Source of the DNA: a virus
Strand: one strand, 5' to 3'
DNA length: 64,000 nt
Virus record (IMG/VR): IMGVR_UViG_3300046314_000372
Coordinates: 2,349-66,348 of that record
In this document: positions 35,572 through 51,712 of the stretch, in pieces
Position numbering within the stretch: position 1 is the stretch's first letter
Layout: each line of letters starts with the position of its first letter
The notes under the pieces: model-generated
The model's input: the letters and a program-made list of their open reading frames with translations, nothing else
What the model was told of the DNA's origin: nothing
The model's database searches: none
Position numbers and translations under genes: made by a program

Positions 35572-35706
35572 TTAGTCCTCGAAAGTAATGTAATCTTCTT
35601 TGCCTACCCCACACTCAGGGCACTCGAAATCGTCTGGAAGTGTATCCCAAGCGCCTTCTGTAGCTTCATCGTGAACGTGGTCACATAATACGCAAATATA
35701 TGTCAT
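35572..35706 (-). CDS. rubredoxin (44 aa; below the ORF-track size cutoff)
   Basis: Translation MTYICVLCDHVHDEATEGAWDTLPDDFECPECGVGKEDYITFED: two CxxC knuckles (CVLC / CPEC-G). Start overlaps the stop of the rubrerythrin-like gene (ATGA). Stop abuts the downstream gene start. Confidence 0.6.
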   Translation of the reverse strand: MTYICVLCDHVHDEATEGAWDTLPDDFECPECGVGKEDYITFED

Positions 35707-36155
35707 TTTACTGTTTCCCAAACTTGTTGATATGCTTCTGCGTGACGTTGCTCAACACGCTTTAATGCAGCAAAACGCTTTTCAGCTTTTTGTAGAACTC
35801 TGATAAAGGCTTCTGCGTGCTCACGAGACTCTGTGCCTTGGTGCTTAGCTTCTTGTGCAACTTCATAATTACCTTCACGAAGTGCCTTGGCTTCAAACAG
35901 CGGGTACATTTCTGTGTACTCGTAAGTTTCGCCTTCAATGGCTTTTTCTAAGCAAACTTTAGTACTAGGCTTGCCGATTAAGAGTTCTAGATGGCCCCAG
36001 GCGTGCTTTAGTTCTTGACCAGCAGTTTGCTCAAAGTGGTCAGCTACTTCATCATAGCCCTCTTCACGAGCAATTTTGGCAAAGTACAGGTACTTTGTGT
36101 ACGCCATGGATTCGCCAGCAAGGGCACTCTCCAAGTTTTGTAGTGTTACCGACAT
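35703..36155 (-). CDS. rubrerythrin-like ferritin-type diiron protein (no fused rubredoxin domain)
   Basis: Two E-x(n)-E..H half-sites ('EQTAGQELKHAWGH', 'AKHQGTESREHAEAF'). Confidence 0.5.
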   Translation of the reverse strand: MSVTLQNLESALAGESMAYTKYLYFAKIAREEGYDEVADHFEQTAGQELKHAWGHLELLIGKPSTKVCLEKAIEGETYEYTEMYPLFEAKALREGNYEVAQEAKHQGTESREHAEAFIRVLQKAEKRFAALKRVEQRHAEAYQQVWETVK

Positions 36156-36670
36156 TGTTTTTTAACCTCTTCTAATGAAATAGGGGTATAGTTGATACGT
36201 TCCATCGAAACATTAAAATAACGACGGTCTGGAATCTGTGCAAGAGGCATCTTTACCACATTGTGGTGTAAGTGACCATGCACATTTAAACCCCAGCGAG
36301 CTAAGCTTTCTGGGTGAATGGGAATATGGGTCATAATTAGCCCCTCAAACTGGTGACTACCGCGAACATCTTTGAAGTGCTCTAAGTAGGCCTCCATTTT
36401 ACACAAATCGTGATTGCCTTTAATTAGAACTTTTTGCCCATTCATTCTTTTTAAAATATCTAACGAATAGGACTTAGTACTCATGACTATATCGCCTAAA
36501 AAGTATACCTTGTCATTAGGGCGTACTACACTATTGTGACAATCAACGATATGTTCGTTCATGTGCGAGATTGTTTGAAACTCACGCAAGGCAGTGCCAT
36601 CATCACGTTTGAACGTAAGAATATTAGCGTGACCAAAGTGGTGGTCACTTGCAAAAAATATATTAGCCAT
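36146..36670 (-). CDS. calcineurin-like metallophosphoesterase
   Basis: 'FFASDHHFGH', 'FLGDIV', 'GNHD' motifs. Confidence 0.55.
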   Translation of the reverse strand: MANIFFASDHHFGHANILTFKRDDGTALREFQTISHMNEHIVDCHNSVVRPNDKVYFLGDIVMSTKSYSLDILKRMNGQKVLIKGNHDLCKMEAYLEHFKDVRGSHQFEGLIMTHIPIHPESLARWGLNVHGHLHHNVVKMPLAQIPDRRYFNVSMERINYTPISLEEVKKQCR

Positions 36671-39329: not shown

Positions 39330-39929
39330 TTATTCCTGGGATTCAGCCGCTGCTTCGTCTGCTTCGCGTTTGGCGTGCATTGCAGTCAAGCGTTTTACAA
39401 CTTCTTCTGAATCCATCCAAATGTCTTTGTTGTGCATCATGGACTCAATTTCAGCTTCAGTTAAAAACTCAGCATAAACTTCGGTCATAAACTTACGAGA
39501 CCAAGCACGCTCAAACTGAATCTGATCGTACTGCTCACCACCTTTGCCAAATGTTCCTGACGAGTAATCGTGGAACATAAACAAGCTGTGTGGAGTTACT
39601 TCTTGCATATGGCCGTGTAGGAAGATCATGGTTGCTGCACTCATGCAAGCACCTTCAACGCTACAAACCACCGTGGCTTCTGTGTCCGACATAACTCGCA
39701 AGAATTGCAGTGTAGTAAAAAGATCTCCACCAGGTGAGTTAATATAGATGCGGATAGTATCTGTGCTAGAAGCGTTACGGATAACGTCAAACCACTCGAT
39801 ATATTCCTCAGCGTCTTCAATTGCTCCACTCAGGTAAAACTCATGAACTTGAGCTACTGGCTTGCTAAAATTATTGCTGAACTGCTGCGATTGAAACAGC
39901 TTAGGGTCGAGAATGTTTGTGTATTTCAT
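39330..39929 (-). CDS. ClpP-family serine protease
   Basis: 'IRIYINSPGGDLF' (ClpP INSPGG block), Ser-site 'ACMSAAT', His region 'MFHDY'. Track ORF begins at a TTG (39992); the RBS-preceded ATG at 39929 is the likely start. Confidence 0.5.
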   Translation of the reverse strand: MKYTNILDPKLFQSQQFSNNFSKPVAQVHEFYLSGAIEDAEEYIEWFDVIRNASSTDTIRIYINSPGGDLFTTLQFLRVMSDTEATVVCSVEGACMSAATMIFLHGHMQEVTPHSLFMFHDYSSGTFGKGGEQYDQIQFERAWSRKFMTEVYAEFLTEAEIESMMHNKDIWMDSEEVVKRLTAMHAKREADEAAAESQE

Positions 39930-39989
39930 GGTTTCCTTCATAAATTTTAGCATACTACGACAGTCCGGCTCTGATTGCCATATGTGGTT

Positions 39990-40214
39990 CAATATGCTAA
40001 AATTTATGTTGGTTTAGGGTCAGGTTTATTCTGTTACGAGGAAAACCTGACAAAACCCTAAGCGGCGTTTAGGCTGCTAATGCGAACTGTGTATCGTTTG
40101 CGTTTATTTTTTGTTTTGCTTCTGCGACCAGGAACAACCCTAATCCTAAGGCTTCTGCTTTACCTAGTTGTCCACTTGTTTACTCTTTGCCCTGTCGAAA
40201 CCAAATGCAGCCCC
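39990..40214 (-). ncRNA. ssrA: tmRNA (SsrA) coding piece: 5' acceptor strand GGGGCUG, D-analogue, tag ORF ANDTQFALAA, stop, helix-5-like hairpin
   Basis: Minus strand reads GGGGCTGCATTTGGTTTCGACAGGG ... AAAAAATAAAC GCA AAC GAT ACA CAG TTC GCA TTA GCA GCC TAA (resume codon GCA at 40101..40099, stop 40071..40069), then CTTAGGG...CCCTAA hairpin. Collinear with the E. coli tmRNA 5' ~250 nt; the 3' limit is approximate. Confidence 0.6.
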
Positions 40215-40280
40215 ATCAGAAGCATACTAGCACACAGACTTAACTGTGAATTGTGGGTTTCAAGACCACTAATATACTTT

Positions 40281-40406
40281 TGGTGGAGCTGGCGGGACTC
40301 GAACCCGCGTCCAGAACCTGTTTCTGTCTGCTTCATACAACCATATATAAATACACCCCACTAAAGCCCTCAGAGGTTTCTTTCATTTAGGACGTGTACT
40401 TATATA
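40281..40406 (-). ncRNA. ssrA: tmRNA acceptor piece: T-arm plus 3' acceptor strand CAGCUCC-A-CCA, encoded upstream of the coding piece (permuted)
   Basis: Minus strand ...GGAC GCGGG TTCGAGT CCCGC CAGCTCC A CCA is near-identical to the E. coli tmRNA 3' end. CAGCUCC pairs with GGGGCUG of the downstream piece, including G3.U70. The 5' limit (after tRNA-Thr) is approximate. Confidence 0.55.
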
Positions 40407-40481
40407 TGGTGCCCCAGGACAGAATCGAACTGCCGCACTCGCGTTACAAAGGCGAACCTCTACCATTAAGGATACAAGGGC
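40407..40481 (-). tRNA. tRNA-Thr (TGT)
   Basis: Acceptor GCCCTTG/CTGGGGC (1 mismatch); anticodon stem TCGCC/CGCGA, loop TTTGTAA; T GGCAGTTCGATTCTGTC; CCA. Confidence 0.65.
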
Positions 40482-40675: not shown

Positions 40676-40897
40676 TTAAATTTGTTTGTTGCGAACACAG
40701 CCTTCAAAGTTGTCCCATAATCGCTCAAACTTCATTTGGTACATTTGCTGGAGTCCGATCAGGTAGTTTTGCTTGGCGTCTTCGTCCAGTTTATCCCACT
40801 GATCTAGTGCAAGCTGAATGTCATCTGTAACATTCCAGCATTGCATGATATTTTGTTCTAGGTCAAAACGGTCGGACATTTTAGTTAGCCAATACAA
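40676..40897 (-). CDS. hypothetical protein
   Basis: ORF only. Confidence 0.25.
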   Translation of the reverse strand: MYWLTKMSDRFDLEQNIMQCWNVTDDIQLALDQWDKLDEDAKQNYLIGLQQMYQMKFERLWDNFEGCVRNKQI

Positions 40898-41351
40898 ATT
40901 TTAGTCGATCAGCAGCATAGCTTGCTGCAAAAGCGTTGGGCTTTACTTGAGCATCAACGTTACAAGTACCTTTGATATAACCAATAGCCTGTTGAACAAC
41001 ACAGCTAGAACCATACATTAGGTTAGGGTTAATATCTAGGTGAACTTCAACGTGACGATCTTGTAGGACGTCCGATAGTTCGTGAAATAGGTCACTAACC
41101 TTATATACTTCTTGCATTAAGCGAAGTGCAGGTTTGGACACTTTTTGGTCAAAGTCGCGTTCACGAGTTACTGAACCAAAGATTTTGCAACCGTGATTAC
41201 CGTCAATGTGAACAACAACTGCTAGAGTATAGTCAGCGTGCCATACACCATGGATTTTAACACGTTCGCTATCAGCACCAAGATAAATCTTAGTGGTTTC
41301 TGATTGTGCAACGATGAAGTCTTTGACTTCTTGGATATTAAATTTGTGCAT
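40881..41351 (-). CDS. hypothetical protein
   Basis: ORF only. Confidence 0.3.
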   Translation of the reverse strand: MHKFNIQEVKDFIVAQSETTKIYLGADSERVKIHGVWHADYTLAVVVHIDGNHGCKIFGSVTRERDFDQKVSKPALRLMQEVYKVSDLFHELSDVLQDRHVEVHLDINPNLMYGSSCVVQQAIGYIKGTCNVDAQVKPNAFAASYAADRLKFVLAN

Positions 41352-42917: not shown

Positions 42918-44294
42918 TTAAAGCACTTCTGCTTCGAGGGCCTGAATGTAATCAATCACTGCTTCTGAAAAACCTGTTACAGTTTCCCATTCAGCGCTGT
43001 TGATACCATTCTGGTAAGAACCAACGTTCAGGATGTAGTTTTTGTCTTTAGACAAACGCTTGGCATTATGAGGCTCAAAACCTCTGCCACCTGTGTCTTG
43101 TTCATCAGTAAACACGATTACTCGGTCTACTGATGCACCTTGTTCTTGTTGTGCGATATAGTCCATAGCTTGCACCAGGAATATACCACCGCTGCCGATT
43201 TTACGGCTAACCTCACCACTGCGGATGTAGTCGCTAAGAGCAAACCCACGTCGATTTGGGATCAACATAGTTGCGTGCTTGCGAGAACCATCATTACCGG
43301 CCGTTGCGTAGATAACTACGTCTTCGCAGATTTCTCGTGCCAAGATAGCCAGCGAACAAGCGGCATCAAGACGAGAGATATCGCTTTTACCACTTATTGC
43401 CGCTCCCATGGAGCCGCTAGTGTCAACTACCAAGACTGTACGCCCTGGAAGTTTTGCCTGTGCTGACAGGCTGTTTAGCATCATGCGTTCAAGCATCGCC
43501 TCAAGTTGAGGAACCTGACGAGCCGCAGTAATGTACCGGAAAGGCAATACTTTAGAAGCGTCAAGGGTTTTTGAGTACGACTCAATTTGTGTTTGAGAAA
43601 TACCTGCTTGAAGCATATTACGCAAGTTACGTAAAAATGCTAGAGCACCCAGTTTGTTCTCTGCCATAAGGCGAGTGAACGTTTCCGCTTTGTTAGCACC
43701 TGAACTCAGTTGAGTTTCCCAAGTGTCTGGAGTTTCCAGTGAATCTGAGGCAATTCGTTTGAATAGCTCAGCTTGGGCTGCTGTTTGCGGTTTAGGGTGA
43801 CTGAGGAACATAACATCACGCAAGCGAATAGCTGCTGAGTTTTTGTCCCATTTAGCCAACTGGAATTCGCTGAACTTGTTAAAACAAGCAGCAAGACCAC
43901 GTTTAACCTGATTGCTCAGGGCTGACTTACCTTCACGCCAATAGATACTCAAGAATTCAGACATTTCGTCTGGACGCTGAATAACATTGGTCAAGGCATT
44001 TGCTTGCAATTTACCGTGTCGAGCAAGCTCGCGGACAAGCAACAGAGGAACGTGACGAAGTTTGAACTTAGTACGAGCCTCCAAAGCTAGTTGTGCAACC
44101 TTTTCAGGAGCAACTTTAGCCACAACGTCTTTAACCAACTCGGCATGGGTTTTACCATCAACATAGAACTGGTCTTCCCAAAGCATTGCTGCTAGGGTCA
44201 AACGACGCAGTTGTCGTTCTGGGTTAATAGTGCGTACTGGTATACCAACGCTATTAACTGTCATGGAAGCGGATTTGCGATTAATCGCGGACAT
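42918..44294 (-). CDS. rsr: Ro60-like protein Rsr (TROVE domain + vWA domain with MIDAS)
   Basis: N-terminal TROVE-like region; C-terminal vWA with MIDAS 'VVDTSGSM', 'ATAGNDG', 'VFTDEQD'. Confidence 0.6.
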   Translation of the reverse strand: MSAINRKSASMTVNSVGIPVRTINPERQLRRLTLAAMLWEDQFYVDGKTHAELVKDVVAKVAPEKVAQLALEARTKFKLRHVPLLLVRELARHGKLQANALTNVIQRPDEMSEFLSIYWREGKSALSNQVKRGLAACFNKFSEFQLAKWDKNSAAIRLRDVMFLSHPKPQTAAQAELFKRIASDSLETPDTWETQLSSGANKAETFTRLMAENKLGALAFLRNLRNMLQAGISQTQIESYSKTLDASKVLPFRYITAARQVPQLEAMLERMMLNSLSAQAKLPGRTVLVVDTSGSMGAAISGKSDISRLDAACSLAILAREICEDVVIYATAGNDGSRKHATMLIPNRRGFALSDYIRSGEVSRKIGSGGIFLVQAMDYIAQQEQGASVDRVIVFTDEQDTGGRGFEPHNAKRLSKDKNYILNVGSYQNGINSAEWETVTGFSEAVIDYIQALEAEVL

Positions 44295-44317: not shown

Positions 44318-44445
44318 AGAACTAGGCGAAACAGAGATTTTAGCGCTCTACCGACTGAGCTACCTTGGCTATTGCGCCTCGGGGTGGACTCGAACCACCG
44401 ACCTCTCGTTTAGAAGACGAAGTAACTGTTTCTTTCACTATACCT
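44318..44445 (-). ncRNA. YrlA-like RNA candidate 2: permuted tRNA-like module immediately upstream of the rsr start
   Basis: Minus-strand order: T-arm GGTGG-TTCGAGT-CCACC, acceptor-like hairpin CCGAGGC-GCAATA-GCCAAGG (5 of 7 pairs), TA, D-arm GCTC-AGTCGGTA-GAGC, then GAAACAG/CTGTTTC closing helix. Ends ~20 nt before the rsr ATG. Limits are approximate. Confidence 0.4.
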
Positions 44446-45966: not shown

Positions 45967-46043
45967 TGGGCAGGAGAACGGGTTTCGATCCCTAACTTCT
46001 TGTTTCACAGACAAGTGTGCTTGCCACTGACACTATTCCCTGC
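45967..46043 (-). tRNA. tRNA-His (GTG) with encoded G-1
   Basis: G-1 paired with C73 (8-bp acceptor); anticodon stem CTTGT/ACAAG, loop CTGTGAA; T GGGATCGAAACCC; CCA. Confidence 0.7.
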
Positions 46044-49385: not shown

Positions 49386-49868
49386 TTACATTGTTTTGGT
49401 TACTGGCCCGTATACGTCAAACAGCTCAGTTTCAAAGTGTTTGATCAAACCACGTTCCCTGTATTCGTAGTTGTCTGGAATATCCAAAACAATCTGCTTG
49501 CGCTCAATTTGTTCCAGCAGTTCACGATGGCCAAGGAAGTTATCTTCTAGCTGCCACAGGTTTTCACGATTAACAAACACAATCTTTTCAGCCCAGTTGA
49601 TTAGATTAGCCGAGCATGGGATTAGTGCGTAGTTAAAGTTTGAGCCACAACTGCGAGCATTAATACCGCGCTCAATGGCTAGACTGGCACCGGTTGGGCT
49701 ACGCAGGAGGCCAGCACTACACACAAAAAGCCAACGAGGAGCTTGACCTTGGTATTGGTTAGCATAAGGTGCGCTAGTTTTAAAGATTGAGTCATTTTTT
49801 GTACCTTGGGCAAATGGTTGAGTATTAGGCATTTTGTTTTGATTTAAGTAGCTGTTGGAATAAGGCAT
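49386..49868 (-). CDS. CX5R phosphatase-like protein (LMW-PTP/arsenate-reductase-like P-loop)
   Basis: 'FVCSAGLLRSP' CX5R(S) loop. Confidence 0.3.
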   Translation of the reverse strand: MPYSNSYLNQNKMPNTQPFAQGTKNDSIFKTSAPYANQYQGQAPRWLFVCSAGLLRSPTGASLAIERGINARSCGSNFNYALIPCSANLINWAEKIVFVNRENLWQLEDNFLGHRELLEQIERKQIVLDIPDNYEYRERGLIKHFETELFDVYGPVTKTM

Positions 49869-50866
49869 CGCTTTACAAGTTTAGTGCTTGCCAAGTTTTT
49901 TTGTTTTGATTCACACATTATATCAGCGTAAGTACTAAATGTCAAGGCCCAGTCATTTACTGCTGAATTCCAGTAGTAGTCACTATGAGCACGAAGTTTA
50001 GCACTTGTAAAACCACTGGACTTGAGTTGCCGGAAGTCAGGACGCACTGTTGTGTCGTGGTCAACAAGCACATCTTCGCGGCTGACACTATAGTGAATTA
50101 CTGGACGTACACCGCGCCACGAGTCACACACCTGCTTGAATTTAGGGTCAGTGGGTTCAATGTATTCGCCACTATTAATCCAGTGATGATGAATGTCAAG
50201 AACTAAGGCACAAGTGTCGACTAGCTCTAAGCTGGCATCAAGACCCCAGGTAAACTCGGCATTTTCGATTGTTAGGGTGTTGCGCGCTTCGGGACTAAGA
50301 CGACGCATAGCGGCTTTGATACCATCCGGGCCTAGCTTACCACCCACGTGCACATTGCATTTGAAGTCTTGAAATTGACGGCCGTAGCCCATGTAACGAA
50401 TCAAGTCTGCATGATACTCGAACTCCATAATGGAATTTTCAACAACACCAGGATTTTCTGATGCAAGCACACAGAACTGACCTGGGTGAAAGCTGAGTCG
50501 AATGTCGTTGGCACGAGCAAACTCGCCGCACAGGTTCAGGTGAGCTTCGAGCTTCGCAATAACATCAGGCTGGAAGTAAAACGGCATATAATCTTCATGA
50601 GTATATGCGGGCAACAAGTCTGATGTAATACGAAACATACGCTGATTATGCGGCTGTTTGGCAACCCATTTTAGCTGGCGATAGAACGCATTAAGATTGT
50701 GGTCAAGCAAACCCCACAGCTTGGCACGAGCAGCGTCAGGAGTTTGACGCTGCAAGTACGTGATAGTTGTGGACTTAGTGTTCAAGTCAGCATCGGCCTT
50801 GTCATGGTCAGATTGAATCTTGCAGGCAAAGCCAATGCGATTGATAGTGTGATTAAAATATGTCAT
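49844..50866 (-). CDS. uvdE: UV-damage endonuclease UvdE-like
   Basis: Blocks 'RIGFAC', 'MFRITSDLLPAYTH', 'IRLSFHPGQF', 'CNVHVGG', 'LTIENAEFT', 'LVLDIHHH' parallel UvdE. Track start (50872) is a GTG; the ATG at 50866 lies ~7 nt after the -10, which implies a leaderless mRNA. Confidence 0.55.
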   Translation of the reverse strand: MTYFNHTINRIGFACKIQSDHDKADADLNTKSTTITYLQRQTPDAARAKLWGLLDHNLNAFYRQLKWVAKQPHNQRMFRITSDLLPAYTHEDYMPFYFQPDVIAKLEAHLNLCGEFARANDIRLSFHPGQFCVLASENPGVVENSIMEFEYHADLIRYMGYGRQFQDFKCNVHVGGKLGPDGIKAAMRRLSPEARNTLTIENAEFTWGLDASLELVDTCALVLDIHHHWINSGEYIEPTDPKFKQVCDSWRGVRPVIHYSVSREDVLVDHDTTVRPDFRQLKSSGFTSAKLRAHSDYYWNSAVNDWALTFSTYADIMCESKQKNLASTKLVKRCLIPTAT

Positions 50867-50873
50867 AGCCACA

Positions 50874-50910: not shown

Positions 50911-51144
50911 TTATCGACCCACTAAACCAAAGCAGATTCTGCAAACCGGAAACTCATCTGAGTCAGTTTTATGATCGCTGCCCCAAATTCCACAGTGTGA
51001 ACATTCTTTGCAGTATTCTTCTAGTAGGTAGTCATCAATGTTTTCAATATCAATGCCAGCGTCGTGGCATGCTTCTGTGAGAGTTTTTCTAGTACCTGAG
51101 AGCTTTTTAGTTAAGCGCTTGTACATCTGGTTTATATCGGTCAT
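50911..51144 (-). CDS. small Zn-finger protein
   Basis: 'CKECSHC...CRIC'. Confidence 0.25.
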   Translation of the reverse strand: MTDINQMYKRLTKKLSGTRKTLTEACHDAGIDIENIDDYLLEEYCKECSHCGIWGSDHKTDSDEFPVCRICFGLVGR

Positions 51145-51712
51145 CTAGGTGTTGGTGGGTTTTCTCAAATTCAAGAAGGAACATAATACAGCAAGCTGCA
51201 TGAGCTAAGTGGCTCAGGCCTGATTCAGGGTCAGTATCTTCACCTGCGTTAAATGCTGTAATGTGTCGCATTGCTGCGGCTAAGGGTCGGCTCCATGCAA
51301 AGCCTTTGCGCCAGTTGTGTTCTGCGTACTTGATAGCACCGAACTTCAATACTGCCGCAGTTTGATTCATTGCTTCAGTTGAAAGCAAGTGTAGTGGTAG
51401 TTTGTCTGTGTCAAATTTTAGTGCAGTGCCAGCAGCTTTGTGAATCTCGTCTATTTTCTTTGCACTACGGTAACTTATATCAGCCGCCATTGCTTTGATT
51501 TGTTCAGGTGTTGGATAGCCATCATCTGTTGGATATTGTGCTGCTCTATCAGCATCTGTGGGGAATTCCCCAAATACTGTTTGATGTTCTAGTGTGGCAA
51601 TAATTTCTTCTGTTTTAGGCATTGTGTTAGCTTTATATCGGGCAATTTGACTTGGCCCAGGTTTATAGTTTCGGTGAATATTCATTATAGGCGATTTAGC
51701 TACTTTTGTCAA
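51107..51712 (-). CDS. hypothetical protein
   Basis: ORF only. Confidence 0.3.
   Translation of the reverse strand: MTKVAKSPIMNIHRNYKPGPSQIARYKANTMPKTEEIIATLEHQTVFGEFPTDADRAAQYPTDDGYPTPEQIKAMAADISYRSAKKIDEIHKAAGTALKFDTDKLPLHLLSTEAMNQTAAVLKFGAIKYAEHNWRKGFAWSRPLAAAMRHITAFNAGEDTDPESGLSHLAHAACCIMFLLEFEKTHQHLDDRYKPDVQALN

What the first reader, a model, noticed from the sequence alone, without database searches (positions are those of the whole stretch)
39930..40410. Phage-encoded tmRNA that appears circularly permuted (two-piece), with tag ANDTQFALAA, directly upstream of a ClpP-family protease gene
Read on the minus strand, the T-arm plus 3' acceptor strand (...GGAC GCGGG TTCGAGT CCCGC CAGCTCC ACCA; CCA at plus-strand 40281-40283) is almost identical to the E. 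coli tmRNA 3' end. It lies about 66 nt upstream of the matching 5' acceptor strand GGGGCTG, whose first G is the complement of plus-strand base 40214.

The downstream piece continues with a D-loop-analogue (CATTTGGTTTCGACAGGG), a pseudoknot-like region and a resume context (AAAAAATAAAC GCA). It then carries an in-frame tag GCA AAC GAT ACA CAG TTC GCA TTA GCA GCC TAA (ANDTQFALAA, an ALAA-type degron) and a helix-5-like hairpin built on CTTAGGG.

Only one copy of each acceptor strand exists, and no T-arm/CCA follows the tag region before the ClpP-like ORF starts. A CCA end that precedes its partner strand cannot be charged unless the precursor is cut. The simplest model is therefore a two-piece tmRNA like those in alpha-proteobacteria, here derived from a gamma-proteobacterial-type sequence with PK2-4 deleted.

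G3.U70 (the AlaRS identity element) is preserved in the inter-piece acceptor helix. The adjacent ClpP homologue (INSPGG and Ser/His blocks) could favour turnover of SsrA-tagged proteins. I could not find an obvious P2-like inter-piece helix by eye, so a degenerate pseudogene remains possible.
Basis: partly seen in the sequence, partly recalled or inferred. Interest (0 to 1): 0.85.

Follow-up and report, generated by a model that had tools for sequence, protein, structure and literature searches.

The report
Phage two-piece tmRNA, beta type
A T5-like phage carries a real, well-conserved circularly permuted (two-piece) tmRNA gene for rescuing stalled ribosomes, but it belongs to an already known family that is common in phages, so it is a solid new example, not a new kind of thing.

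Summary
On the minus strand, a T-arm plus acceptor 3' strand plus CCA (ending at 40281) lies 66 nt upstream of the matching 5' acceptor strand (G1 = 40214). A tag ORF for ANDTQFALAA follows at 40101-40069. ARAGORN calls it a permuted tmRNA and Rfam tmRNA_permuted scores 110 bits.

It is not a fresh permutation of a gamma-type gene. It aligns end to end with the betaproteobacterial two-piece model (RF01850, 82.8 bits, cut-off 84). Homologues occur in 85 IMG/VR viral contigs and in cultured Stenotrophomonas, Xanthomonas, Alcaligenes and Acinetobacter phages, some already annotated as tmRNA.

So does a leader-trailer helix in the excised spacer. Between the window and its closest relative, the mature parts are 94-100% identical and the spacer interior only 39%. 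This is a functional gene, not a pseudogene.

The ClpP-like gene is a divergent ClpP with an intact Ser-His-Asp triad. The order tmRNA then ClpP is conserved in this phage lineage and recurs in two other ClpP clades. Most phage ClpP genes have no tmRNA nearby and most phage tmRNAs have no ClpP nearby, so functional coupling is only suggestive.

Verdict: new member of a known kind, modest interest.

The parts
40410..40481 (-). tRNA-Thr(UGU), immediate 5' neighbour. The tmRNA gene sits inside the phage tRNA array.
   Evidence: Rfam tRNA 44.8 bits. ARAGORN misses it here but calls tRNA-Thr(tgt) at the same place in relatives L157, L159 and L164.
40281..40342 (-). Acceptor piece (minimum extent). 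P2-distal 5' strand 40342-40337; P2-proximal 5' strand 40317-40312; T-arm 40308-40292; acceptor 3' strand 40291-40285; discriminator A 40284; encoded CCA 40283-40281.
   Evidence: Identical at 62 of 62 positions in relative L013.
40215..40280 (-). 66-nt intervening segment, predicted to be excised. Its ends form a leader-trailer helix (40279-40273 with 40226-40220) that stacks on the acceptor stem in the precursor.
   Evidence: All 7 pairs show compensatory changes; 90.7% of cells paired against 34-57% when slid. Precursor hairpin folds at -32.9 kcal/mol, z = -4.2. Interior only 39% identical to L013.
40166..40214 (-). 5' part of the coding piece. Acceptor 5' strand GGGGCUG 40214-40208 (predicted RNase P site 5' of G40214); D-loop analogue CAUUUGGUUUCGA 40207-40195; P2-proximal 3' strand 40194-40189; purine-rich internal loop; P2-distal 3' strand 40171-40166.
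   Evidence: 48 of 49 positions identical to L013.
40126..40165 (-). Two pre-tag hairpins: P3 (40165-40162 with 40152-40149) and the subfamily-specific 7-bp hairpin HB (40145-40139 with 40132-40126). They occupy the position of PK1.
   Evidence: RNAalifold on 6 subfamily members: 6 of 11 pairs compensatory. 100% paired with compensatory changes in the 8-member lineage alignment.
40069..40125 (-). A-rich linker with UAAAC before the resume codon (U at -5, A at -4), then the tag ORF GCA...GCC UAA at 40101-40069, encoding ANDTQFALAA.
   Evidence: Relatives vary only at tag positions 4-6 and 9 (ANDTQFALVA, ANDQVYALAA, ANDNTYALAA, ANESVYALAA).
40020..40078 (-). Helix 5 (40078-40073 with 40066-40061, stop codon in its loop), then an H-type pseudoknot: S1 40059-40056 with 40042-40039, S2 40050-40043 with 40027-40020, and a conserved loop UCCUCGUAACAGAAU.
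   Evidence: S2: 77% paired against 28-47% when slid, many pair types. S1: perfect complement in 51 of 58, null mean 42.9, maximum 48. Lineage counts.
39942..40005 (-). Long hairpin (13-bp arms 40005-39993 with 39954-39942, extendable to about 19 bp) between the tmRNA and the ClpP ribosome-binding site. Role unknown: possibly a processing site or a 3'-end stabiliser.
   Evidence: the 151-nt region that also holds the post-tag hairpin folds at z = -6.4. 94.9% paired with one compensatory pair in relatives.
39330..39929 (-). ClpP-like serine protease gene (199 aa from ATG 39929 behind AAGGAA). Same strand, with no terminator-like site in between.
   Evidence: Pfam PF00574. PHROG 1827 'ATP-dependent protease' at 213 bits, against about 100 bits or less for head-protease families. 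Ser97, His120 and Asp169 aligned to ClpP and invariant. Start supported by homologue lengths of 193-199 aa and. No terminator-like site.

Best explanation
This is a functional, phage-encoded two-piece (circularly permuted) tmRNA gene of the 'beta' type. It is embedded in the tRNA array of a novel, distantly T5-like phage.

**Shown**
- The gene order is acceptor piece (P2 5' strands, T-arm, acceptor 3' strand, encoded CCA), then a 66-nt spacer, then the coding piece. The coding piece holds the acceptor 5' strand, D-loop analogue, P2 3' strands, two hairpins, the resume codon GCA, a 10-codon tag ANDTQFALAA, helix 5 and one pseudoknot.
- All helices that hold the two pieces together are maintained by compensatory substitutions.
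- A helix between the trailer after CCA and the leader before G1 is maintained in the same way.

**Inferred from established tmRNA and tRNA biology**
- The precursor is made as part of the tRNA-array transcript or from its own promoter, and folds like a tRNA precursor.
- RNase P cuts 5' of G40214, and the 3' trailer is trimmed back to the encoded CCA at 40281. The spacer loop is discarded.
- The two RNAs stay paired through the acceptor stem and P2. Host AlaRS charges the complex through G3.U70 and A73, and host SmpB and EF-Tu deliver it to stalled ribosomes.
- Translation resumes on GCA and appends (A)ANDTQFALAA. This is a host-like ssrA degron with the C-terminal LAA read by ClpX.

**Likely benefit to the phage (inferred)**
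Extra ribosome-rescue capacity and disposal of truncated proteins while host nucleic acids are being destroyed and translation demand is high. This is the same logic as carrying 25 tRNA genes.

The downstream ClpP-like gene may add proteolytic capacity, but that coupling is not established.
For: **Identification**
- ARAGORN calls a permuted tmRNA.
- RF04321 scores 110.4 bits.
- RF01850 matches full length, E = 2e-25.

**Family**
- Seven GenBank phage loci and 85 IMG/VR contigs carry the same arrangement. ARAGORN calls every one whose gene is complete in the fetched DNA as permuted, with AND...(A/V)A-type tags.

**Structure under selection**
- P2-distal and P2-proximal each have 5 of 6 pairs with compensatory changes, with 89% and 99% of cells paired.
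- G3.U is present in 62 of 62 sequences.
- 0 of 500 shuffles reach the observed values, and slid controls give 50-57%.
- Leader-trailer helix: 7 of 7 pairs compensatory.
- Lineage alignment: 97.2% paired, 20 compensatory pairs.

**Selection on the mature RNAs only**
- Against L013, the acceptor piece is 62/62 identical, the 5' coding part 48/49 and the tag 31/33. The spacer interior is 39%.

**Tag behaves as a coding degron**
- Close relatives vary mainly at positions 4-6.
- U(-5) and A(-4) before the resume codon are conserved.

**Other**
- No second T-arm or acceptor strand anywhere.
- Phage context: DNA polymerase 47-48% identical to T5-like vibriophages, T5-type replication genes, 25 tRNA genes.
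- Published precedent for phage two-piece tmRNAs: PMC9004378.
Against: - No expression, processing, charging or tagging data exist.
- RF01850 scores 82.8 bits, 1.2 below its gathering score.
The RNA must therefore rely on host SmpB, whose compatibility is untested, and the host is unknown.
- PK1 is not evident in this subfamily; two hairpins stand in its place.
- The 5' end of the acceptor piece and the 3' end of the coding piece are not defined.
- The physiological benefit to the phage is inference.
Confidence: 0.88

Rival explanations
1. Tag-and-degrade module. The tmRNA and the ClpP-like protease are a co-selected functional pair. The phage tmRNA tags proteins, and the phage ClpP subunit, docking on host ClpX or ClpA, degrades them to recycle amino acids or remove host proteins. 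This is an add-on to the best explanation, not an alternative to it.
For: - The two genes are on the same strand with no terminator-like site between them.
- The order tmRNA then ClpP is conserved in the window's lineage: L013, L157-L161 and L164.
- A ClpP-like ORF lies on the same strand within about 2.1 kb downstream in 14 IMG/VR contigs, and never upstream or on the opposite strand.
- The linked ClpPs fall in three clades interleaved with unlinked ones, and the L072 group is sister to XacN1/Xoo-sp13, which lack the neighbour.
- The triad is intact and invariant.
- The tag ends in the ClpX-type ALAA.
Against: - About 35 tmRNA loci with at least 2.5 kb of downstream DNA have no ClpP.
- Eleven ClpP-bearing phage loci checked have no tmRNA within 2.7-4 kb.
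- Within the lineage other genes (heme oxygenase, a 186-aa ORF) are inserted between the two.
- Only about three independent lineages show the linkage, and the NJ tree is rough.
- No unfoldase, adaptor or SmpB gene was seen nearby.
- A ClpP this divergent (E about 1e-6 to solved ClpPs) may not dock on host ATPases.
Confidence: 0.2
2. Decoy or inhibitor. The phage RNA mainly competes with host tmRNA for SmpB, AlaRS or ribosomes, to blunt host trans-translation or a defence that depends on it. Productive tagging is not its main job.
For: PMC11915505 reports a phage precedent: the CDS-less tmRNA-like RNA of mycobacteriophage DS6A inhibits endogenous tmRNA when expressed in E. coli. The tRNA-like domain is the most conserved part of the gene.
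Against: - The tag ORF, resume context, stop codon and helix 5 are all intact.
- They are conserved with degron-preserving variation (AN[D/E]...[F/Y]AL[A/V]A) among relatives. A pure decoy would not need that.
Confidence: 0.06
3. Non-functional remnant: a decaying, rearranged fragment of a host ssrA gene picked up by the phage.
For: RF01850 scores just below its gathering score. No canonical PK1 is present. Two lineage members (L159, L162) have altered T- and D-loops, and L162 is not called by ARAGORN.
Against: - Compensatory substitutions occur in nine of the eleven helices at lineage level (the other two do not vary there) and in all of them across the wider family, including the spacer stem.
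- Mature regions are 94-100% identical to L013 while the spacer interior is 39%.
- The family is spread over 85 viral contigs.
- The closest bacterial copy is only 68% identical in the core, against 75-96% for viral copies.
Confidence: 0.03
4. A one-piece tmRNA whose 3' T-arm and acceptor strand were overlooked.
For: None found.
Against: - No GTTCRANYC, TTCGA or CAGCYCC motif lies between 40068 and 39300 on the minus strand.
- There is only one copy of each acceptor strand in the window.
- ARAGORN and both permuted covariance models place the CCA end upstream of G1.
Confidence: 0.01

Closest known systems
Betaproteobacterial two-piece tmRNA (Rfam RF01850 beta_tmRNA). The attribution to the 'third lineage' of Sharkady & Williams 2004 is from memory and from citations in PMC9004378 and PMC11915505; the paper itself was not held.
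   Same: - Same permuted order.
- Same tRNA-like domain sequence (GUUCUGGACGNGGGUUCGANUCCCNCCANCUCCACC ... GGGGNUG..UGGUUUCGACAGGG).
- Same P2 architecture.
- Same tag type (ANDERFALAA / ANDEQFAIAA against ANDTQFALAA).
- Same post-tag hairpin with a CCU..UAAC..AA loop.
   Different: - The window copy encodes the terminal CCA. The Rhodocyclaceae chromosomal copies read ACC+U/C.
- The spacer is 66 nt against 24-43 nt.
- There is an extra 7-bp pre-tag hairpin.
- The model's 3' terminator hairpin is absent.
- Core identity to any bacterial copy is 68% or less.
- The score is 82.8 bits against a gathering score of 84.
Phage-encoded two-piece tmRNAs already in public genomes: Stenotrophomonas phages Marzo, Bhz51, Yut2 and Yut3 (annotated tmRNA/ssrA); DLP_6; Xanthomonas phages Rb1, JGB6 and BUDD; Alcaligenes phage QDWS595; Acinetobacter phage BUCT628.
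   Same: - ARAGORN-permuted.
- RF04321 scores of 77-137 bits.
- AND-type tags.
- Encoded CCA.
- Often located in tRNA arrays.
   Different: - Only the acceptor piece is alignable by BLAST (81-89% over about 45-70 nt).
- Different phage families.
- No ClpP-like gene within the 2.4-3 kb fetched downstream in the six of these seven loci that could be scored (BUDD was not).
- Longer or divergent tags.
Marine phage two-piece tmRNAs (OM43 phage Melnitz, pelagimyophages, cyanophages; PMC9004378)
   Same: The concept is the same: a lytic phage carrying a complete permuted ssrA, proposed to maintain the hijacked translation machinery or to tag proteins for recycling.
   Different: According to that paper, those belong to the alpha and cyano permuted lineages, and in Melnitz the gene is coupled to a glutamine riboswitch. 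The window copy is beta-type, and no riboswitch was found.
E. coli SsrA (one-piece tmRNA) with ClpXP degradation of AANDENYALAA-tagged proteins. Stated from established knowledge, not tested here.
   Same: - G3.U70, A73 and CCA.
- GGUUCGA T-loop and UUCGAC D-analogue.
- UA at -5/-4 before a GCA resume codon.
- A 10-codon tag with AND, an aromatic residue at position 7 and C-terminal ALAA.
- Stop codon in the helix 5 loop.
   Different: - Permuted into two pieces.
- One post-tag pseudoknot instead of PK2-PK4.
- Hairpins in place of PK1.
Phage accessory ClpP-like proteases (PHROG 1827 'ATP-dependent protease'; ClpP of XacN1/Xoo-sp13, T5-like DU_PP_V/KEY/Kamaji, Vibrio T4-like phages; noted as patchy and probably host-directed in PMC7824862)
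   Same: - Pfam CLP_protease domain.
- Conserved Ser-His-Asp triad.
- Located among early or replication genes, not in the head module.
   Different: - Only 32-41% identical to any cultured-phage homologue.
- Here it lies directly downstream of a tmRNA, which none of those eight loci shows.

Membership tests
tmRNA (SsrA) | tRNA-Ala-like acceptor stem with G3.U70, discriminator A and 3' CCA | tested here: met
   GGGGCUG (40214-40208) pairs with CAGCUCC (40291-40285), followed by ACCA. The G.U pair is present in 62 of 62 homologues, and one other acceptor pair covaries with five pair types.
tmRNA (SsrA) | T-arm with GGUUCGAnUCC loop, and D-loop analogue ..UGGUUUCGAC.. | tested here: met
   Both are invariant in the 62-sequence alignment. 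The T-stem is 100% paired, with one pair showing 5 pair types.
tmRNA (SsrA) | Long helix P2 linking the tRNA-like and mRNA-like domains | tested here: met
   40342-40337 with 40171-40166, and 40317-40312 with 40194-40189. 5 of 6 pairs are compensatory in each; 89% and 99% paired against 50-57% when slid.
tmRNA (SsrA) | Internal tag ORF starting at an Ala resume codon with no start codon, a conserved upstream UA, a hydrophobic ALAA-type C-terminus, and a stop codon in the helix 5 loop | tested here: met
   GCA at 40101 preceded by AUAAAC; ANDTQFALAA then UAA. Helix 5 at 40078-40073 with 40066-40061, 87.5% paired with 3 compensatory pairs. Tag variation among relatives preserves the degron.
tmRNA (SsrA) | Pseudoknot PK1 just upstream of the resume codon | tested here: not met
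   In this subfamily the position holds two nested hairpins, P3 and HB. No complementary partner for the P3 loop was found by eye. In other family members a PK1-like pairing appears by eye (for example CUGA/UCAG and CCGA/UCGG in the listing), but this was not formally tested. From memory, PK1 is replaceable by a hairpin in E. coli, so it is not strictly defining.
tmRNA (SsrA) | Alanylation by AlaRS, SmpB binding and trans-translation activity | not testable with these tools
   Needs biochemistry.
Permuted (two-piece) tmRNA, Rfam RF04321 | The 3' acceptor strand and CCA are encoded upstream of the 5' acceptor strand, with an intervening segment to be excised; score at or above the gathering score | tested here: met
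   110.4 bits against 47, full model 1-213. ARAGORN calls tmRNA*. Single copy of each strand. The spacer interior is unconstrained while its terminal stem covaries.
Beta-type two-piece tmRNA, Rfam RF01850 | Score at or above the gathering score of 84 bits over the full model | tested here: inconclusive
   82.8 bits, E = 2e-25, model 1-331 matched, which is 1.2 bits short. Five of seven cultured-phage homologues pass at 94-104 bits. The model's promoter region and terminal hairpin have no counterpart here.
Beta-type two-piece tmRNA, Rfam RF01850 | Residence in Rhodocyclaceae-type betaproteobacterial chromosomes | tested here: not met
   The window is a T5-like phage. The nearest copies are in viral contigs (75-96% core identity), and Rhodocyclaceae copies are 68% or less.
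ClpP (peptidase S14) for the neighbouring ORF | Pfam CLP_protease domain above its cut-off, and a Ser-His-Asp triad | tested here: met
   48.5 bits against 20.2. Ser97, His120 and Asp169 align with S. pneumoniae ClpP 1y7o and are invariant in 15 relatives. All 21 PDB matches are ClpP subunits.
ClpP (peptidase S14) for the neighbouring ORF | ClpP fold, tetradecameric barrel, and docking of a Clp ATPase | tested here: inconclusive
   The AlphaFold2 model was poor (mean pLDDT 57.7), so no fold search was run. Oligomer state and ATPase docking are not testable here.

The most novel reading that the evidence does not exclude
The tmRNA and the ClpP-like gene form a phage 'tag-and-degrade' cassette that has been assembled or retained repeatedly. 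The evidence is three ClpP clades with a tmRNA upstream on the same strand, interleaved with clades that lack it. On this reading the phage supplies both the degron-writing RNA and a protease core that plugs into host ClpX or ClpA. That would speed the clearance of truncated or host proteins during infection.

A second, weaker reading: the 'beta' two-piece tmRNA is primarily a phage-borne, horizontally spreading gene, and the Rhodocyclaceae chromosomal form descends from such a copy.
Probability: 0.2. Interest if true: 0.6.

Novelty: new member of a known kind. Interest (0 to 1): 0.3.

Why it matters
It adds a well-documented example from a new, metagenomically common T5-like phage lineage to the known set of phage two-piece tmRNAs.

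Three points are worth a specialist's attention.

1. The beta-type permuted form is widespread in phages whose known hosts (Stenotrophomonas, Xanthomonas, Acinetobacter) I would expect, from memory, to use one-piece tmRNA. That bears on how the permuted gene spreads.
2. The excised spacer keeps a covarying leader-trailer stem that the Rfam models do not include. This gives a concrete, testable processing model.
3. A ClpP-like protease gene is recurrently placed just downstream. This is a cheap hypothesis to test for phage control of the host's protein quality-control pathway.

None of this overturns current understanding.

Tried and rejected
**Searches that found nothing useful**
- Megablast of the locus against GenBank phages found no match. 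Only the distant blastn mode found the acceptor piece.
- Exact-sequence look-up of the ClpP-like protein with three alternative starts found nothing on record.
- The Sharkady & Williams 2004 paper is not held, so its structural description could not be compared directly.
- Three literature searches found nothing on a phage tmRNA-ClpP link.

**Analyses that failed or had to be redone**
- The AlphaFold2 model of the ClpP-like protein had mean pLDDT 57.7 because the alignment was shallow. I did not run a fold search and used a profile search against PDB sequences instead.
- A diverse ClpP alignment was too divergent for the search for related loci. The narrower clade returned only 7 loci.
- My first register for pseudoknot stem S1 was not distinguishable from a +1 slide, 79% against 78%. 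It was re-tested with a register-free search and permutation.
- MAFFT misaligned the regions around the tag in the 62-sequence alignment, so helices 5, 6 and 9 are uninformative there. They were re-tested on A3, A4 and with anchored counting.

**Ideas I dropped**
- My guess that the Stenotrophomonas and Variovorax genome copies are prophage-borne was not supported in the one case checked: S. chelatiphaga, with an MFS transporter and a PAS/HWE kinase as neighbours.
- The extended outer stem UUAGGGU/ACCCUAA that RNAfold draws for the window is not conserved in L159, L160 or L164. The pseudoknot reading is preferred.
- The ARAGORN 'tRNA-???' at 40281-40370 is an artefact of the acceptor piece.
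Full report
**1.

Read on the minus strand, the window contains ...GGUUCUGGACGCGGGUUCGAGUCCCGCCAGCUCCACCA, with the CCA at 40283-40281. A 66-nt spacer follows (40280-40215). Then comes GGGGCUGCAUUUGGUUUCGACAGGG starting at 40214. Further on lie AAAAAAUAAAC-GCA and the in-frame tag GCA AAC GAU ACA CAG UUC GCA UUA GCA GCC UAA (40101-40069).

ARAGORN calls this a permuted tmRNA ('tmRNA*', 39978-40373, tag ANDTQFALAA). Rfam's tmRNA_permuted model RF04321 matches 40069-40342 at 110.4 bits against a gathering score of 47.

It fails: no T-loop, TTCGA or acceptor 3' strand lies between the tag and the end of the next ORF, and each acceptor strand occurs once in 64 kb.

**2. Which family it belongs to**

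With permissive thresholds, the betaproteobacterial two-piece model RF01850 aligns over its full length. The match is 40014-40403, model positions 1-331, 82.8 bits, E = 2e-25, just under its gathering score of 84.

A distant blastn of the locus hits 24 GenBank phage records from Stenotrophomonas, Xanthomonas, Alcaligenes and Acinetobacter phages. Five of those records already annotate the site as tmRNA or ssrA.

In the seven loci I fetched, ARAGORN calls a permuted tmRNA with AND-type tags. RF04321 scores 77-137 bits, and RF01850 passes its cut-off in five.

A strict DNA pattern for the permuted arrangement finds 85 IMG/VR viral contigs. ARAGORN calls a permuted tmRNA in all 84 whose gene is complete in the fetched DNA (one is cut off by the contig end), mostly with ANDxxFALAA-like tags.

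The literature already documents phage two-piece tmRNAs. In PMC9004378, ARAGORN flagged 53 of 133 unique phage tmRNAs as two-piece. The 2025 tmRNA database lists 79 phage sequences (PMC11915505).

So the idea of a new permutation 'derived from a gamma-proteobacterial-type sequence' is not supported. This is a member of the known beta-type permuted family, in its phage-borne form.

**3. Relation to bacterial copies**

- **Rhodocyclaceae** (Dechloromonas, Propionivibrio, Accumulibacter, Azonexus, Rhodocyclus and others). These have tags ANDERFALAA, ANDERFAIAA or ANDEQFAIAA and do not encode the terminal A of CCA (ACC followed by U or C).
- **Stenotrophomonas, Variovorax, Herbaspirillum and others.** These encode CCA like the phage copies and have unusual tags.

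The window copy is 75-96% identical in its core to viral copies, and at most 68% identical to any bacterial copy.

**4. Anatomy and evidence of function**

On a MAFFT alignment of 62 non-redundant homologues (A1), a structure projected from the window gives 88.9% paired cells, against 50-57% when partners are slid. None of 500 shuffles reaches any of the five measures.

| Element | Window coordinates | Support |
|---|---|---|
| P2 distal | 40342-40337 with 40171-40166 | 5 of 6 pairs compensatory |
| P2 proximal | 40317-40312 with 40194-40189 | 5 of 6 pairs compensatory |
| Acceptor stem | 40291-40285 with 40214-40208 | third pair G.U in 62 of 62 |
| Leader-trailer stem | 40279-40273 with 40226-40220 | 7 of 7 pairs compensatory, 90.7% against 34-57% |
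| P3 hairpin | 40165-40162 with 40152-40149 | covaries |
| HB hairpin, 7 bp, subfamily-specific | 40145-40139 with 40132-40126 | covaries |
| Helix 5, stop codon in the loop | 40078-40073 with 40066-40061 | 87.5% paired, 3 compensatory pairs |
| Post-tag stem S2 | 40050-40043 with 40027-40020 | 77% in register against 28-47% when slid |
| Post-tag stem S1 (pseudoknot) | 40059-40056 with 40042-40039 | perfect complement in 51 of 58; null 42.9, maximum 48 |

The leader-trailer stem was not anticipated. The first nucleotides after CCA pair with the nucleotides just before G1, extending the acceptor stem in the precursor. The precursor hairpin folds at z = -4.2. The Rfam models do not include this stem.

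P3 and HB together sit where PK1 usually lies. The S2 stem closes a conserved loop, UCCUCGUAACAGAAU, and with S1 it makes an H-type pseudoknot. S1 partners covary as ACCU/GGGU, GCCU/GGGC and ACUU/GAGU.

On eight members of the window's own lineage (A4), the full 73-pair structure is 97.2% paired, against 37-52% when slid. Twenty pairs carry compensatory changes.

The comparison with the closest relative, L013, shows what is under selection.

| Region | Identity to L013 |
|---|---|
| Acceptor piece | 62/62 |
| 5' part of the coding piece | 48/49 |
| Tag ORF | 31/33 |
| Post-tag region | 52/55 |
| Spacer interior | 18/46 (39%) |

Tags in lineage members are ANDTQFALAA, ANDTQFALVA, ANDQVYALAA, ANDNTYALAA and ANESVYALAA. 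Variation is confined to positions that, from what is known of the E. coli ssrA tag, matter least for ClpX recognition.

A pseudogene is therefore excluded as far as sequence analysis can exclude it.

**5. How it most likely works**

*Shown:* the gene order and the conserved pairings.

*Inferred from established tRNA and tmRNA biology:*
- The precursor folds like a pre-tRNA.
- RNase P cuts 5' of G40214, and the trailer is trimmed to the encoded CCA.
- The spacer is lost, and the two RNAs remain joined by the acceptor stem and P2.
- Host AlaRS (through G3.U70 and A73), SmpB and EF-Tu act on the complex.
- Stalled ribosomes switch to GCA at 40101 and append (A)ANDTQFALAA.

No SmpB homologue is in the window. 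No sigma-70-type promoter or terminator was flagged on the minus strand between the upstream tRNA-Thr (40410-40481), the tmRNA and the next ORF. Co-transcription with the tRNA array and read-through into the ClpP-like gene are therefore plausible but unproven.

A long hairpin (40005-39993 with 39954-39942) sits just before the ClpP ribosome-binding site. The 151-nt region containing it folds at z = -6.4, and the hairpin is 94.9% paired in relatives. It may mark a processing site.

The likely benefit to the phage is more ribosome-rescue capacity during infection. That is inference.

**6. The genome**

The window is from a novel phage with T5-like replication genes. Its DNA polymerase is 47-48% identical to those of T5-like vibriophages. 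It also carries a split NAD-ligase, SbcC, a flap endonuclease, a D10-like helicase, a primase and a DnaB-like helicase.

It has 25 tRNA genes: 23 called by ARAGORN, plus two (40410-40481 and 45970-46042) that only Rfam calls.

No GenBank phage is close at the DNA level. The lineage is nevertheless common in metagenomes: more than 120 ClpP-like homologues at 76-96% identity.

**7. The ClpP question**

The ORF 39330-39929 is a divergent ClpP.
- Pfam PF00574 scores 48.5 bits.
- Its best PHROG is 1827, 'ATP-dependent protease', at 213 bits, well above the head-maturation protease families.
- Ser97, His120 and Asp169 align to S. pneumoniae ClpP and are invariant in relatives.
- All 21 PDB sequence matches are ClpP subunits.

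*Linkage.*
- In the window's lineage the order tRNA-Cys, tRNA-Thr, tmRNA, ClpP is conserved. Sometimes a heme-oxygenase or a 186-aa ORF is inserted between the tmRNA and ClpP.
- Among all tmRNA loci, a ClpP-like ORF lies on the same strand within about 2.1 kb downstream in 14 contigs, and never upstream or on the opposite strand. About 35 loci with enough downstream DNA have none.
- The linked ClpPs form three clades in a rough NJ tree, interleaved with unlinked ones. The L072 group is sister to XacN1/Xoo-sp13, where ClpP sits between ligase and primase with no tmRNA within 4 kb.
- Eleven ClpP-bearing phage loci checked lack a tmRNA within the 2.7-4 kb fetched on either side.

The juxtaposition is more than a one-off and may have arisen more than once. 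But it is a minority pattern with few independent events. I rate a functional cassette at about 0.2.

**8. Verdict**

It is a new member of a known kind. Three modest additions are worth recording:
- the covarying leader-trailer stem;
- the breadth of the phage-borne beta-type family;
- the recurrent ClpP neighbour.

Noticed in passing
window 42918-44294 (-) and 44325-44432 (-): A TROVE (Ro60-like) plus vWA protein is encoded inside the tRNA array (Pfam TROVE 54 bits; PHROG 850). Directly 5' of it is a full-length but sub-threshold Rfam YrlA (Y-RNA-like) match: 28.4 bits against a gathering score of 69, E = 0.002. This may be a phage Ro/Y-RNA module. The TROVE gene is conserved in relatives L157, L158 and L161.
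   Followed up: partly
window 40410-40481 (-): A tRNA found by Rfam (44.8 bits) but not by ARAGORN. Its anticodon is UGU (Thr) and it has an acceptor-stem mismatch. Relatives have an ARAGORN-called tRNA-Thr(tgt) at the same position. A second Rfam-only tRNA lies at 45970-46042 (31.7 bits).
   Followed up: partly
window 40281-40370 (-): The ARAGORN 'tRNA-???' with a 2-base anticodon is an artefact of the tmRNA acceptor piece.
   Followed up: yes
window 39942-40005 (-): A long hairpin lies immediately 5' of the ClpP-like ribosome-binding site. Its 3' arm, GUAGUAUGCUAAAAU, resembles the sequence just upstream of P2 in L013, L157 and L164, which looks like an extended -10 element (TGnTAAAAT). Whether it is a promoter, an RNase III site or a 3'-end stabiliser is undecided.
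   Followed up: partly
L159 3443-4010 and L162 741-1200 (same phage lineage): The tRNA-like domain is re-modelled. The T-loop reads GGCAGUG instead of UUCGAGU, and the D-loop analogue reads GACACAGGAUCGAC instead of CAUUUGGUUUCGAC. The acceptor stem and G3.U are kept. ARAGORN still calls L159 but not L162. This could be a co-evolved T/D-loop variant or early decay.
   Followed up: no
L112, L113, L117, L119, L124, L131, L135, L142, L148 (Stenotrophomonas); L120, L136, L143, L144, L150, L155 (Variovorax); L128, L129, L153 (Herbaspirillum): Bacterial genomes outside the Rhodocyclaceae carry CCA-encoding permuted tmRNA genes with unusual tags, for example ANESFYLKQA, ANADYYDQNEQDTLLAA and ANQVDYHQARIAA. 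In S. chelatiphaga the gene lies between an MFS transporter and a PAS/HWE kinase, not in a prophage. Whether it is a second ssrA gene was not checked.
   Followed up: partly
L160 3436-3996; L162 1189-1734; L164 1528-2073: In some lineage members a heme-oxygenase gene (Pfam PF01126), or in L160 a 186-aa ORF with no Pfam hit, is inserted between the tmRNA and the ClpP-like gene.
   Followed up: no
L013 about 660-700 (spacer of its tmRNA): The excised spacer of the close relative contains a T-arm-like fragment, GGGGGTTCGAGTCCTCTC, that is absent from the window's spacer.
   Followed up: no
window 35703-36155, 36146-36670, 40881-41351, 49844-50872, 51107-51712 (all -): Accessory genes around the tRNA array: rubrerythrin, phosphoesterase, RNaseH-like (PF04308), UvdE UV-endonuclease, and a dATP/dGTP diphosphohydrolase N-terminal domain. 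In relatives the rubrerythrin is followed by a rubredoxin.
   Followed up: no
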